From Patescibacteria group bacterium (GTDB taxonomy: Bacteria; Patescibacteriota; Patescibacteriia; 2-01-FULL-39-33), in NCBI GenBank assembly GCA_041662745.1, contig JBAZRV010000002.1:150001-182000 (forward strand): 32,000 bases of DNA. Direction: 5' to 3'. Position 1 is the stretch's first letter; the number at the start of each line of letters is the position of its first letter. Both the position numbers and the translations under genes were made by a program. Below the pieces are notes generated by a model. It saw nothing but the letters and a program-made list of their open reading frames with translations, did no database searches and had not been told where the DNA came from. Positions 10,371 through 13,588 of the stretch are shown here, one piece after another.

Positions 10371-11057
10371 ATGAAAAAGAAGAGTGAGTTCTTGAGTGCC
10401 CTGGGTGTTATGTGGGAGATTTGGAAATCGCTGACGGACGAAATTTTGTCTTTAGGCGGCGATGACGAGGCGATTTGCCTTATTAAGGCGAATAATGATC
10501 TGCGAAGGCAAATGGCCGAATTGGTAATGGCTAAAGCGCGTGACATCAAAGACGCCGCCAAGCAAATCGTCTCGCCGTATCTGACGTCTGTCCATGACCT
10601 CGTCATTGACTTCAGTCAGGATCTCGGGCAGATGATTGCCGCCGGCAAGTATGACTGGACCAACTCCGACATTACCGCCGAGCATTTTCCTCTTAATGGA
10701 GCGGGTAAGCGGAAGGTCCGAGTCGAGTTGCTTCACTTCAATCAGTATTTCAAAAATGGCGATGAAGTGATTGCCAAACTGAAAGAAGTCAATAAGTGGC
10801 TGGCCCAGCAAGGAGCGAACTATCGCTATCGTTTCTCTCGCATTGAAGAGTTTTTGGCTTTGGGCGTGGTCCAACCCGGTCTGCAACGGCAATTTCCCAT
10901 TGCCGCTCTGGGCTCAATTTGGCACCGTGCCGGCCTCCGCGACTTCGCTTACCTCTACGGGTTTGGTGCGGAGCGCGACCTGCGCCTGCGCTGTCTTGAG
11001 TTTGACTTCGGCGGCCCTTGGCGGTTCGCTGTTGTCCGCGAGCATGCCTGCCGGTAG
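10371..11057 (+). CDS. DGR variable (target) protein 1, VR at the C-terminus
   Basis: 228 aa, a paralog of the next gene (GKYDW.NS.I....FP, NGDEVIA.LK, QRQFPIAALGSIWH). The C-terminal 40 aa are encoded by VR1. No obvious signal peptide or TM. Confidence 0.85.
   Translation: MKKKSEFLSALGVMWEIWKSLTDEILSLGGDDEAICLIKANNDLRRQMAELVMAKARDIKDAAKQIVSPYLTSVHDLVIDFSQDLGQMIAAGKYDWTNSDITAEHFPLNGAGKRKVRVELLHFNQYFKNGDEVIAKLKEVNKWLAQQGANYRYRFSRIEEFLALGVVQPGLQRQFPIAALGSIWHRAGLRDFAYLYGFGAERDLRLRCLEFDFGGPWRFAVVREHACR
10918..11039 (+). other. DGR variable region VR1 (122 nt)
   Basis: Aligned by hand to TR 12002..12123. 23 substitutions are all at TR adenines. Three further synonymous non-adenine differences occur in the last 20 nt (cgc/cgg, ttt/ttc, gcg/gct). 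Confidence 0.9.
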
Positions 11058-11066
11058 GCAGGCATG
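11043..11066 (+). promoter_or_regulatory. GC-rich hairpin 3 nt after VR1 (candidate DGR target-recognition element)
   Basis: catgcctgcc-ggta-ggcaggcatg (10-bp stem, 4-nt loop). The target-1 stop codon TAG (11055..11057) spans the loop/stem junction. Confidence 0.7.
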
Positions 11067-11069
11067 TTA

Positions 11070-11090
11070 CCTTGATTCCTTGAACCTTGA
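11070..11090 (+). repeat. Three CCTTGA hexamers downstream of the VR1 hairpin
   Basis: CCTTGA at 11070, 11078 and 11085. Confidence 0.6.
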
Positions 11091-11117
11091 CACCAAAATC
11101 GGAAAAAGGAGGACATC

Positions 11118-11729
11118 ATGAGAACTGTAAGTAAAACCGGAAACAAAAAAGTCAGAACTGGAACTATCTCCGCCATCACTGGCGCGATAATCTGCCAAGG
11201 CGGAAAAGCCAAGGACTTGACTGCGATTGTCAGAAATGATGAATTGCTCAAACAATTGGCCACGACCATTATCGAACTGTCCAAAAAGATCATTCAAGTC
11301 ATTGTTGACTGCACCATGTCGCTCGGCGATATGATCGACGCCGGCAAGTATGACTGGGTGAACTCGAACATCAACGCCAACAACTTCCCGATCAGCAGGA
11401 AGGGTAAGAAGGTGGTCAGCATTGAACTCTGGCATCCCAACAGGTATTTTAATAACGGCGATGAAGTGATTGCCGAGCTGAAAAAAACTAAACCCGGCTA
11501 TCGTTTTACTCAGATTGAAGAACTCCTGGCCTTAGGCGCGGTCCGACCCGATCTGCAACGGCAATTTCCCATTGCCGCTCTGGGCTCAATTTGGCACCCT
11601 GCCGGCGACCGCGACTTCGCTTTCCTCGACAGGCATGATGCGGAGCGCAACCTGTTCCTGGACTATCTTGAGCGTGACTTCAGCGACCGTTGGCGCTTTG
11701 CGGTTGTCCGCGAGCATGCCTGCCGGTAG
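11118..11729 (+). CDS. DGR variable (target) protein 2, VR at the C-terminus
   Basis: 203 aa, with AGGAGG 6 nt upstream of the ATG. It is a paralog of target 1. The C-terminal 40 aa are encoded by VR2. Confidence 0.85.
   Translation: MRTVSKTGNKKVRTGTISAITGAIICQGGKAKDLTAIVRNDELLKQLATTIIELSKKIIQVIVDCTMSLGDMIDAGKYDWVNSNINANNFPISRKGKKVVSIELWHPNRYFNNGDEVIAELKKTKPGYRFTQIEELLALGAVRPDLQRQFPIAALGSIWHPAGDRDFAFLDRHDAERNLFLDYLERDFSDRWRFAVVREHACR
11591..11712 (+). other. DGR variable region VR2 (122 nt)
   Basis: 15 differences from the TR, every one at a TR adenine. The adenine-free 3' 22 nt are identical to the TR. Confidence 0.92.
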
Positions 11730-11739
11730 GCAGGCATGT
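11716..11739 (+). promoter_or_regulatory. GC-rich hairpin 3 nt after VR2 (identical to the VR1 hairpin)
   Basis: catgcctgcc-ggta-ggcaggcatg. The stop TAG at 11727..11729 sits in the same position as in target 1. Confidence 0.7.
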
Positions 11740-11742
11740 TAC

Positions 11743-11771
11743 CTTGATTCCTTGAACCTTGACCCCTTGAA
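11743..11771 (+). repeat. Four CCTTGA hexamers downstream of the VR2 hairpin
   Basis: CCTTGA at 11743, 11751, 11758 and 11766. Confidence 0.6.
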
Positions 11772-11776
11772 TTTTC

Positions 11777-11814
11777 CGCGCGATGACCATAGTTATCGCG
11801 CGGCTTTTATTTTA
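11777..11814 (+). terminator. Rho-independent terminator after the target operon
   Basis: ccgcgcgat-gaccatagtt-atcgcgcgg followed by cttttatttt. A TATAAT at 11828..11833 follows and may drive TR transcription. Confidence 0.7.
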
Positions 11815-12001
11815 TCTAATTTTTTACTATAATAGAGCCAAGGGTTAATACTCCCGCGGCCACGGTTTCGGGATACCCGCAAAATAAACAAGATTGCTCG
11901 GCGTCTGATGTTGGCGGGTTTAAAGACCCCGAATAAAATACAGCCGGAAGATACGGCCTGGCTGTTCAACCGGCAGTGGCTACAGATGGCGTCAGACGAA
12001 T

Positions 12002-12123
12002 TTTGGCACCATGCCGGCAACCGCAACTTCGCTTACCTCAACAGGAATGATGCGAAGCGCAACCTGAACCTGAACTATCTTGAGAATGACTTCAACGACA
12101 ATTGGCGCTTTGCGGTTGTCCGC
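12002..12123 (+). other. DGR template repeat (TR), 122 nt
   Basis: Homologous to VR1 and VR2. It contains 31 adenines, including 10 AAY codons when read in the VR frame (GNRNFAYLNRNDAKRNLNLNYLENDFNDNW). The 3' 22 nt are adenine-free. Homology to the VRs stops at ...gttgtccgc. Confidence 0.92.
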
Positions 12124-12556
12124 TATCAATTTTGTTTTCCGTCCTCGCTGTTGGCGGGGATGTTTTTTCCAAACCGATTTTCCACGCATAGGCCAACCGT
12201 CCGATTTCCTCAATTTTAAGCGCCAAATCGCGGAATTTATTATCATTAAATAGCTTCATTTCCCAGCACAGCCGCAAATAAAATTTCAGCAGATCGATTT
12301 TTTTTATTGATTTTATTGCCGGTTTTAATTTTTTGTCTTTCGGCAGATATTGGGCGGTGGCCAGTATTTCCAATAGTTCCAGAAATATCTGATCCAGGCG
12401 GATGCCCAAGGTAAAGCGAGATGTTTTGGGAAAATTTTTTAACCAATCATGCCAAAGTTTGTAGGCAGCGATGGTTTTGCCCAGAACCAGTAAATTTCCC
12501 GTCGGGGGGGGGGATTTAAAGGATGAATTATGAGAAATAAGATCAGATTGAGTCAT
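12092..12556 (-). CDS. avd: Avd-like accessory protein (four-helix-bundle / 23S rRNA IVS protein family), start uncertain
   Basis: AYKLWHDWLKNFPKTSRFTLGIRLDQIFLELLEILATAQYLPK...IDLLKFYLRLCWEMKLF...LALKIEEIGRLAYAWK matches the four-helix-bundle family I recall next to CPR DGR RTs. It is on the opposite strand to the TR and RT. The 3' end overlaps the TR (12092..12123). The ATG 12556 start overlaps the RT start. Confidence 0.7.
   Translation of the reverse strand: MTQSDLISHNSSFKSPPPTGNLLVLGKTIAAYKLWHDWLKNFPKTSRFTLGIRLDQIFLELLEILATAQYLPKDKKLKPAIKSIKKIDLLKFYLRLCWEMKLFNDNKFRDLALKIEEIGRLAYAWKIGLEKTSPPTARTENKIDSGQPQSANCR
12504..12513. repeat. G10 homopolymer tract
   Basis: Ten consecutive G residues 16 nt upstream of the RT ATG (12530). 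On the minus strand it encodes PPP within the long form of the avd ORF. Confidence 0.9.
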
Positions 12557-13588
12557 AGTTTTGACGAGATTATTTGTCTTGATAATTTATTGGCGGCCTG
12601 GCGGGAATTCGTCCGTGGCAAAAGAGACAAGAAAGACGTGCAAGAATTCCAGTGGCAACTGATGGATAATCTTACAGTGCTTCATTGGAATTTGGCAAGC
12701 GGCGATTATTGCCATGGCGGCTATCAGGCCTTTAAGATTTGTGATCCCAAATCGCGGCAAATCCATAAGGCGTCGGTTCGGGACAGATTAGTCCATCATG
12801 CGATTTATCGGATTTTGTATCCGTTCTTTGATCGGACTTTCATCGCCGATTCTTATTCCTGCCGGCTGGGCAAGGGCACGCATAGGGCCTTGGCTCGGTT
12901 CAGTGAATTCGCTTACTCCGCCAGTCGGAACAATACCCGCACTTGCTGGGTTTTGAAGGGCGATATCAGGAAGTTTTTTGCCAACATTAATCATGGGATA
13001 TTGAAAGAGATTTTGGCCGAGTATATTCTAGATAAAAAGATTTTGGGGTTATTGGATGAAGTGATTGACAGCTTTCACTGTGTTAATGATAACCTGGATT
13101 CCTGCTTTCGCAGGAATGACAAGGGGAAGGATGAGGATGTCAGTGGTAGTAGAGGTCTGCCATTAGGCAATCTGACTTCGCAACTTTTAGTTAATATTTA
13201 CATGAATAGATTCGATCAATTTGTTAAGCATAAATTACAAGTCAAGTATTATATCCGCTATGCTGATGATTTCGTGATAATATCTAATGACAAAGGAGAT
13301 CTAATTCGATTATTGGAGTTGATTAGCAATTATTTGAAACAAGAACTGAAATTGGAGCTTCATGATGATAAAATTTCCATTCGCACTCTTAGTTCAAGCA
13401 TTGATTTCTTGGGCTGGATTAATTTTCCCCGTCATCGTGTTTTACGGACAAAAACTAAAAGGAGGATGTTTAGGAGATTGCGGGATAATTTTAGGTCAGA
13501 AGCGGTTAATTCGTATATCGGCCTGCTAAGTCATGGCAATGCTTATGGATTGCAAAAAAAGATTGCTAAATTAGCTGATTTTTGTTAG
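12530..13588 (+). CDS. DGR reverse transcriptase
   Basis: 352 aa. RT motifs: RQIHKASVRDRLVHHAIY, SYSCRLGKGTH, VLKGDIRKFFANINH, the DGR-type motif 4 LPLGNLTSQLLVNIYMN, the catalytic YADD (YIRYADDFVII), and IDFLGW. RBS AAAGGA upstream. Confidence 0.92.
   Translation: MRNKIRLSHSFDEIICLDNLLAAWREFVRGKRDKKDVQEFQWQLMDNLTVLHWNLASGDYCHGGYQAFKICDPKSRQIHKASVRDRLVHHAIYRILYPFFDRTFIADSYSCRLGKGTHRALARFSEFAYSASRNNTRTCWVLKGDIRKFFANINHGILKEILAEYILDKKILGLLDEVIDSFHCVNDNLDSCFRRNDKGKDEDVSGSRGLPLGNLTSQLLVNIYMNRFDQFVKHKLQVKYYIRYADDFVIISNDKGDLIRLLELISNYLKQELKLELHDDKISIRTLSSSIDFLGWINFPRHRVLRTKTKRRMFRRLRDNFRSEAVNSYIGLLSHGNAYGLQKKIAKLADFC
13089..13122. repeat. Hairpin repeat copy 1, in frame inside the RT ORF
   Basis: ataacctggattcctg-ctttcg-caggaatgacaa. 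It shares its 16-nt 5' and 12-nt 3' parts with 22970..23004 and encodes ..NLDSCFRRNDK.. Confidence 0.75.

What the first reader, a model, noticed from the sequence alone, without database searches (positions are those of the whole stretch)
10880..11761. Two tandem targets share an identical VR module, but VR1 has three non-adenine synonymous mismatches at its 3' end
The two target genes have diverged over most of their length. Yet from tctgcaacgg (10880 / 11551) through the VR, the hairpin and the CCTTGA repeats (to ~11090 / ~11761) they are identical except at TR-adenine positions. The ~38 nt immediately 5' of the VR is not present in the TR but is still 100% identical between the paralogs. 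This points to recent duplication or gene conversion of the whole 3' module. VR1 alone differs from the TR at three non-adenine, synonymous third-codon positions (cgc/cgg, ttt/ttc, gcg/gct; ~11024..11030), inside the stretch next to the IMH-like end. Homing from the TR would be expected to overwrite such positions. VR1 may therefore be a less active or decaying target, or cDNA integration into VR1 may resolve upstream of this stretch.
Basis: seen in the sequence. Interest (0 to 1): 0.6.

Follow-up and report, generated by a model that had tools for sequence, protein, structure and literature searches.

The report
Old paralog marks at DGR target end
In a mutagenic retroelement (DGR) of a Candidatus Buchananbacteria genome, the three odd bases at the end of the first target are an old gene-copy-specific signature that the rewriting did not replace in this genome, not a sign that the target is dying; this is a fine detail of a known system.

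Summary
Modules 10880-11091 and 11552-11763 are identical except at template-repeat (TR) adenine sites and at 11024, 11027 and 11030, where VR1 has CGG TTC GCT and TR and VR2 have CGC TTT GCG. All three changes are synonymous.

New context changes the reading:
- The genome holds a third, remote target (VR3 on contig C1) with the same three bases as VR1, and a dead paralog with two of them.
- The same-genus genome G012 shows the same split: T1-type has CGG TTC GCT, T2-type has CGC TTT GCG.
- The bases are therefore an old paralog haplotype, not recent decay.
- VR1 matches TR at all 88 other non-A positions.
- In both genomes where VR1 and its TR are known (this one and L025), VR1 carries its own TR's base at -19.
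- Between three sister strains VR1 differs only at TR-adenine sites plus these three sites, while 136 flanking bases show 0-2 changes.
- VR1 is thus an actively rewritten target in this population. I cannot show that this genome's copy was among those rewritten.
- In two sister strains VR1 has the TR state, so the sites are polymorphic.

Most likely the 3' junction of TR-to-VR transfer into VR1 and VR3 formed between -19 and -16 from the homology end. Paralog gene conversion is supported, with different breakpoints in different strains. No read-level test was possible. This is an ordinary DGR with a modestly informative natural marker.

The parts
10371..11057 (+). Target gene T1 (228 aa), second from the TR; no Pfam match.
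   Evidence: ORF. No Pfam hit. AlphaFold model has pLDDT 92. The best PDB fold matches are C-type lectin-like domains, but only at E 0.03-0.3.
10850..10879 (+). Window-specific divergent patch just 5' of the shared module.
   Evidence: It is 30-37% different from sister strains L024 and L026, against about 7% background. The four family copies are the only places in the genome that resemble the neighbouring module, and none of their versions of this patch matches.
10880..10917 (+). 5' shared flank of the VR1 module, absent from TR.
   Evidence: 38/38 identical to 11552-11589.
10918..11039 (+). VR1.
   Evidence: 23 mismatches at TR adenines and 3 at other bases.
11024..11030 (+). The three synonymous non-adenine sites (11024, 11027, 11030), which carry the T1/T3-type haplotype.
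   Evidence: The same bases occur in VR3, in G012 T1' and in TR, VR1 and VR2 of L025.
11043..11066 (+). Hairpin after VR1: 10-bp GC-rich stem with a GGTA loop; the T1 stop codon (11055-11057) spans the loop and the first base of the 3' arm.
   Evidence: Sequence, and fold of -23.3 kcal/mol. It fits the 7-10 bp stem and GRNA loop consensus of PMC3240598.
11070..11090 (+). Three CCTTGA units after T1.
   Evidence: Runs of three or more units occur only after the four T-family genes of this genome.
11118..11729 (+). Target gene T2 (203 aa), adjacent to the TR.
   Evidence: ORF. 52.6% aa identity to T1.
11552..11589 (+). 5' shared flank of the VR2 module.
11590..11711 (+). VR2.
   Evidence: 15 mismatches, all at TR adenines.
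11715..11738 (+). Hairpin after VR2, identical to the one after VR1.
11742..11770 (+). Four CCTTGA units after T2.
12002..12123 (+). Template repeat (TR), 122 nt with 31 adenines. Its last 21 nt carry CGC TTT GCG.
   Evidence: In an alignment with six relatives (RNAalifold consensus fold), a TATAAT-like box (11828-11833) and a structured 5' region lie upstream, and a hairpin plus T-run (about 12143-12168) lies downstream.
12092..12556 (-). Inverted avd (bAvd-like accessory gene).
   Evidence: Pfam PF22296, E 2.7e-11.
12530..13588 (+). DGR reverse transcriptase.
   Evidence: RVT_1, E 2.9e-27. LGNLTSQ at residue 212 and YADD at residue 244.

Best explanation
The locus is a DGR of a Candidatus Buchananbacteria (Patescibacteria) genome. 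It has three live targets: T2/VR2 next to the TR, T1/VR1 one gene further, and T3/VR3 on another contig. There is also one dead paralog, T4.

The three non-adenine differences of VR1 are not new mutations. They are the old T1/T3-type version (CGG TTC GCT) of the last conserved codons (W-R-F-A-V-V-R). TR and T2 carry the T2-type version (CGC TTT GCG).

The sites lie 16, 13 and 10 nt from the end of TR-VR homology. This is the zone where the 3' junction of TR-to-VR information transfer is made. In VR1 and VR3 of this genome the transfer reached -19 (inferred) but stopped before -16, so the old bases persist while everything upstream is rewritten.

VR1 is an active target in this population. Where sister strains carry the TR state in VR1 or VR3, it arrived by events that reached further 3'. 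These could be gene conversion from T2 (shown by T2-like tracts outside the TR-homologous part) or a homing event resolved nearer the hairpin.

Shown here:
- the haplotype sharing among paralogs and relatives;
- adenine-only turnover of VR1 between strains;
- variable conversion tracts.

Inferred:
- the position of the junction;
- the claim that heterology near the end pushes it upstream.
For: 1. VR3 (C1:63312-63542, minus strand) has the same three bases. T4 has two of them.

2. In the same-genus genome G012, T1' has CGG TTC GCT and T2' has CGC TTT GCG. In the syntenic element L025, TR, VR1 and VR2 all have CGG TTC GCT. These are therefore two old haplotypes.

3. VR1 has 0 mismatches at the other 88 non-A positions. 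At -19 it carries its own TR's base in both genomes where VR1 and TR are known: T in the window, C in L025. All other copies aligned also match their own TR there.

4. The window's VR1 differs from L024 at 22 sites and from L026 at 20 sites. Of these, 19 and 17 are TR-adenine sites, and the rest are exactly the three sites. L024 and L026 differ from each other at 18 sites, all TR-adenine. The 136 flanking bases compared show 0-2 differences, against about 7% upstream. VR1 was therefore rewritten at least twice since these segments last shared an ancestor.

5. Other live secondary targets keep terminal non-A mismatches while being adenine-only upstream: G012 T2' at -10, and G033 VRb at -10 and -8.

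6. In BPP-1 the coconversion boundary lies at TR 107-112 of 134 (PMC3240598). TR 118 and 119 are not copied into cDNA (PMC5703328). A terminal stretch of homology is thus known not to be transferred.

7. T2-like tracts occur in T1 of L024 (from about 10850, 9 of 9 informative sites) and partly in T3 of L109.
Against: - In 58 TR/VR pairs of related CPR DGRs (each found within the 4-kb flank of the RT), non-A mismatches are rare at 11-20 nt from the homology end (5 of 541). Adenine changes occur as close as about 7-9 nt to the last Arg codon. In relatives, transfer therefore usually covers the equivalent positions.
- In L024, L026 and L109 the TR state is present.
- The TR's terminal 21 nt differ among seven DGRs almost only at synonymous positions. 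This suggests the zone is at least sometimes expressed through a VR.
- I cannot show that the window's own VR1 was among the copies rewritten since the strains split.
- No reads could be examined.
Confidence: 0.55

Rival explanations
1. Homing normally overwrites the three sites. In this genome the TR/VR2 haplotype was replaced recently, by recombination with a strain of the CGC TTT GCG type or by VR2-TR conversion. VR1 and VR3 have simply not been rewritten since, so they are currently slow targets.
For: - Both secondary targets of this one genome share the non-TR state. In other strains VR1 (L024, L026) and VR3 (L109, L110) have the TR state.
- Inter-strain divergence drops from about 7% to 0-1% at 10880, as after a recent exchange.
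- The CPR survey shows transfer close to the end.
Against: - The CGC TTT GC(G/C) type is already in the TR and T2' of G012, so it looks old in the TR/T2 line.
- G012 T2' and G033 VRb also keep terminal mismatches while following their own TR upstream.
Confidence: 0.2
2. The terminal 16 nt or so of the TR are never reverse-transcribed: strict BPP-1-like priming inside the TR 3' end. All agreement between TR and VRs there comes from DNA-level gene conversion or common descent.
For: - BPP-1 cDNA starts at TR G117 of 134 (PMC5703328).
- T2-like tracts extend outside TR homology in L024 and L109.
- The dead paralog T4 still has 20 of 21 terminal bases of the T1/T3 type, so the zone is conserved without homing.
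Against: - Adenine changes lie 7-9 nt from the last Arg codon in related CPR DGRs.
- TR and VR are near-perfectly identical at 11-20 nt from the end in 58 pairs.
Confidence: 0.12
3. VR1 is a decaying target that has lost homing.
For: Three non-A mismatches lie close to the IMH-like end.
Against: - There are no other non-A mismatches in VR1.
- The hairpin and flank are intact and identical to those of VR2.
- Turnover between strains is at adenine sites only.
- The bases are an inherited haplotype, not new damage.
Confidence: 0.06
4. The bases were re-introduced into a fully T2-like module by a short conversion patch from T3. Alternatively, they are an assembly chimera between strains.
For: - T3 is the only other copy in the genome with these bases.
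- The window's T1 has another odd patch at 10850-10879.
Against: - A patch from T3 could be at most about 24 nt (11020-11043), between sites where VR1 and VR3 differ.
- The same state is seen on two separate contigs.
Confidence: 0.05

Closest known systems
Bordetella phage BPP-1 DGR (mtd VR, TR, avd, brt; IMH and hairpin)
   Same: - Adenine-specific TR-to-VR differences.
- A GC-rich 10-bp hairpin with a GRNA-type loop (GGTA) 3 nt after the VR, with the stop codon at the hairpin.
- A terminal stretch of TR-VR homology that is not transferred: boundary at TR 107-112, cDNA start at G117 (PMC3240598, PMC5703328).
   Different: - Three targets instead of one.
- avd is inverted and lies between TR and RT.
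- TR-VR homology stops abruptly at ...GTCCGC, instead of running on as IMH/IMH* with 5 mismatches in 21.
- The terminal mismatches are present in two targets and absent in the third, so they cannot be what sets directionality.
DGRs of candidate phyla radiation bacteria (DGR clade 2 of Roux et al. 2021, PMC8144416)
   Same: - RT 54-67% identical to those of 80 Patescibacteria loci.
- Small targets with a C-terminal VR.
- The TR lies about 400 nt upstream of the RT start in the 58 loci surveyed. Downstream of the TR, a terminator-like hairpin is seen in six of the seven closest TRs.
   Different: - Most surveyed relatives show one VR within the 4-kb flanks searched, with no mismatch at 11-20 nt from the end.
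- Here two of three targets carry a three-base paralog haplotype in that zone.
Concerted evolution and gene conversion between tandem paralogs
   Same: Sharp identity blocks inside otherwise 59-70% identical genes, with different breakpoints in different strains.
   Different: The tract is interrupted by the three retained sites. It is superimposed on a region that is separately homogenised by the retroelement.

Membership tests
Diversity-generating retroelement (DGR) | Reverse transcriptase of the DGR type (RVT_1 with the [ILV]GxxxSQ motif and YxDD). | tested here: met
   RVT_1, E 2.9e-27. LGNLTSQ at residue 212 and YADD at residue 244. 54-67% identity to RTs next to TR/VR pairs in 80 Patescibacteria loci.
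Diversity-generating retroelement (DGR) | Template and variable repeats whose differences fall at template adenines. | tested here: met
   VR2: 15 of 15 differences at TR adenines. VR1: 23 of 26. VR3: its A-site count (25) includes about one position 5' of the TR, and 4 differences within the repeat are at non-adenine bases.
Diversity-generating retroelement (DGR) | Accessory variability determinant (Avd). | tested here: met
   PF22296 bAvd-like, E 2.7e-11, above the curated cut-off; on the minus strand.
Diversity-generating retroelement (DGR) | Target-side recognition element: GC-rich hairpin with a 4-nt GRNA loop shortly after the VR, absent after the TR. | tested here: met
   10-bp stem and GGTA loop at 11043-11066 and 11715-11738, absent after the TR. 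Consensus from PMC3240598. The element is not universal in the family: the VRs of L025 lack it.
Diversity-generating retroelement (DGR) | VR lies in a C-type lectin-fold (or Ig-like) ligand-binding domain. | tested here: inconclusive
   The model is confident (pLDDT 92). The best PDB matches are C-type lectin-like domains, but at E 0.03-0.3 and TM 0.26-0.48. There are no Pfam or PDB sequence hits.
Diversity-generating retroelement (DGR) | Ongoing mutagenic homing: variation in reads, or cDNA. | not testable with these tools
   The run finder was unavailable. Indirect support only: adenine-only differences of VR1 between three strains.

The most novel reading that the evidence does not exclude
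Processing of the DGR target site at the hairpin/IMH end also starts DNA-level repair from the neighbouring paralog. T2 would then act as donor for conversion tracts that begin at the 3' end of the VR and stop at variable points upstream (about 10850, 10879 or 10880 in three strains, and also in T3 of another strain). The retroelement would thus drive concerted evolution of whole target modules. The three retained sites would be a natural marker of where cDNA-templated and paralog-templated repair meet.
Probability: 0.15. Interest if true: 0.55.

Novelty: new member of a known kind. Interest (0 to 1): 0.3.

Why it matters
How DGR cDNA is joined to its target at the 3' end is still unknown, and it has been mapped only in the BPP-1 phage system. 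Here natural markers place the 3' limit of information transfer between 19 and 16 nt from the end of homology, in two targets of an uncultivated Patescibacteria element. Sister strains show that the limit is not absolute.

This gives a concrete and cheap prediction for read-level or reconstitution tests. It also warns that non-adenine mismatches at the 3' end of a VR should not be read as target decay. It does not reveal a new kind of system.

Tried and rejected
- An exact look-up of the RT protein found no other contig.
- A search for close T2 orthologues found none above 74% identity. VR2, and the TR of the sister strains, therefore remain unknown.
- Pfam and PDB sequence searches of the targets gave nothing useful.
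- I first favoured a strict BPP-1-like model in which the terminal zone is never copied. I downgraded it after the survey of 58 CPR TR/VR pairs showed adenine changes 7-9 nt from the end and almost no mismatches at 11-20 nt.
- I looked for an RNA partner of the TR 3' end by consensus folding of seven TR loci. Seven sequences were too few to judge the proposed long-range helix, and I did not pursue it.
- Point mutation as the origin of the three differences is rejected. There are three changes within 7 nt, against none (L024) or two (L026) in the other 224-230 compared non-adenine sites. They reproduce an existing paralog haplotype.

Full report
**What is there**

The window is contig C2:150001-182000 of a 1.0-Mb, 98% complete genome. 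Homologues of its proteins are named Candidatus Buchananbacteria. The region 10371-13588 is a complete DGR:
- target T1 (10371-11057);
- target T2 (11118-11729);
- a 122-nt template repeat (12002-12123);
- a bAvd-like gene on the minus strand (12092-12556; Pfam PF22296);
- a reverse transcriptase (12530-13588; RVT_1, with LGNLTSQ and YADD).

Ungapped comparison gave these results.
- VR2 differs from TR at 15 positions, all TR adenines.
- VR1 differs at 23 TR adenines and at 11024, 11027 and 11030.
- At those three sites VR1 reads CGG TTC GCT, whereas TR and VR2 read CGC TTT GCG.
- All three are synonymous third positions. They lie 16, 13 and 10 nt from the last base of TR-VR homology.
- T1 and T2 are identical in the 38 nt before the VR, which TR does not contain.
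- They are also identical in the 52 nt after it: a hairpin with a 10-bp stem and GGTA loop, then CCTTGA units.
- Their bodies are only 59-70% identical.

**The genome holds more copies**

A search of the whole genome with the module found two more family members on contig C1, both on the minus strand.
- T3 (63367-64104) has a VR that is adenine-only relative to the TR apart from one internal site. It has a hairpin with a 21-nt partial duplication, and the CCTTGA units.
- T4 (70393-71130) has 28 non-adenine differences and no hairpin. It is a dead paralog.
- VR3 carries exactly the same CGG TTC GCT as VR1. T4 carries CGT TTC GCT.
- Over the gene body T1 is closer to T3 (69% nt) than to T2 (67%).

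**Relatives show two old haplotypes**

- In the same-genus genome G012, the tandem orthologues are split the same way. T1' has CGG TTC GCT and T2' has CGC TTT GCG.
- G012's own TR and adjacent VR have CGC TTT GCC. Its remote but live T2' therefore keeps one non-adenine mismatch at -10 while following G012-specific TR bases upstream.
- A syntenic 10-kb contig (L025; T1 79% identical) has CGG TTC GCT in TR, VR1 and VR2.
- Across seven TRs of this family, the last 21 nt differ almost only at these synonymous positions.
- The cluster of three is therefore what long independent history leaves in a strongly conserved W-R-F-A-V-V-R stretch. It is not fresh damage.

**VR1 is a live target**

- VR1 has no mismatch at the other 88 non-adenine positions.
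- At -19 it has its own TR's base in both genomes where VR1 and TR are known: T in the window and C in L025. The other copies aligned also match their own TR there.
- Two contigs from other samples carry the same T1 locus: L024 (92% identical) and L026.
- Upstream of 10850 they differ from the window by about 7%.
- From 10880 to their ends they show 0 and 2 differences in 136 flanking bases.
- Within VR1 they differ from the window at 22 and 20 positions. Of these, 19 and 17 are TR-adenine positions, and the remaining three are exactly 11024, 11027 and 11030.
- L024 and L026 differ from each other at 18 positions, all TR-adenine.
- VR1 has therefore been rewritten at least twice within a time too short for ordinary substitutions to accumulate next to it.
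- In both sister strains the three sites carry the TR state. The sites are thus polymorphic, and the switch was a templated event, not three point mutations.

**Gene conversion is real, with variable ends**

- In L024 the T2-like tract of T1 starts near 10850. All 9 of 9 informative sites in 10850-10879 are T2-type.
- In L026 the native T1 sequence runs to about 10878.
- A T3 orthologue from another strain (L109, L110) has a partly T2-like tract upstream of VR3 and the TR state at the three sites.
- These tracts extend outside the TR-homologous part, so they are DNA-level paralog conversion.
- In the window, T1 10850-10879 is a unique patch, 30-37% different from both strains. I could not explain it.

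**Where transfer ends**

- In BPP-1 the 3' coconversion boundary is at TR 107-112 of 134 (PMC3240598). Mutations at TR 118 and 119 are not copied into cDNA (PMC5703328). A terminal stretch of homology that escapes overwriting is therefore established biology.
- In the window, the marker at -19 follows the TR while -16, -13 and -10 do not, in both VR1 and VR3. The junction of the last events therefore lay between -19 and -16.
- Other live secondary targets of the family also keep terminal mismatches: G012 T2' at -10, and G033 VRb at -10 and -8.

**Counter-evidence**

- I surveyed 58 TR/VR pairs, each found within the 4-kb flank of the RT, from 80 related Patescibacteria loci.
- Non-adenine mismatches were 10% at 1-5 nt from the homology end and 8% at 6-10 nt.
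- They were only 1.5% at 11-15 nt and 0.4% at 16-20 nt.
- Adenine changes occur as close as 7-9 nt to the final Arg codon.
- In relatives, transfer therefore usually covers the equivalent positions.
- For this reason I favour a junction zone with variable resolution, pushed upstream by the three-base heterology in VR1 and VR3. I do not favour a zone that is never copied.
- I keep as a serious rival that VR1 and VR3 of this genome simply have not been rewritten since TR and VR2 acquired their present haplotype.

**Limits**

- No reads could be examined.
- T2 and TR of the sister strains are unknown.
- The target fold is only weakly C-type lectin-like.

**Verdict**

- Paralog conversion is supported.
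- Decay of VR1 is not supported.
- An upstream 3' junction is the most likely reason the sites persist.
- This is an ordinary multi-target CPR DGR with a useful natural marker.

Noticed in passing
window 11070-11090 and 11742-11770; G000 C1:63313-63333 (-) and C1:70386-70406 (-): Runs of three or four CCTTGA units occur in this genome only just after the four T-family genes, including the dead paralog T4. They are never found after the TR. Similar units follow VRs of relatives in other genera, even where the hairpin is missing (L025). Their function is unknown.
   Followed up: partly
G000 C1:44184, 45083, 119361, 119435, 119650; C2:594; C3:60131; C4:54031: The hairpin core CCTGCCGGTAGGCAGG that follows the VRs is also scattered about ten times elsewhere in the genome. 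It looks like a small dispersed palindromic repeat, so the target hairpin may have been recruited from it.
   Followed up: no
window 10850-10879: A 30-nt patch of T1 differs by 30-37% from both sister strains, whose background divergence is about 7%. None of the four family copies in the genome matches it.
   Followed up: partly
window 10880-11143 compared with L024 and L026: Divergence between strains drops from about 7% to 0-1% exactly at the start of the shared module. It stays there to the ends of the contigs, as after a recent exchange or sweep of the DGR region.
   Followed up: partly
loci L034-L105 (related Patescibacteria DGRs): In 17 of the 58 related DGR pairs the last Arg codon before the divergence point is CGA in the TR. 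In all 17 the VR has CGC. This is a fixed difference in the manner of IMH versus IMH*, not random adenine mutagenesis.
   Followed up: partly
G000 C1:63340-63400 (-); G012 loci L021 and L022: T3 carries a 21-nt partial duplication of the hairpin region. The G012 orthologues of T3 and T4 carry two hairpins in tandem.
   Followed up: no
window 11820-12170: The TR appears to sit in its own small transcription unit. A TATAAT-like box (11828-11833) and a structured upstream region are conserved across six of the seven aligned TRs. A hairpin plus T-run follows the TR at about 12143-12168.
   Followed up: partly
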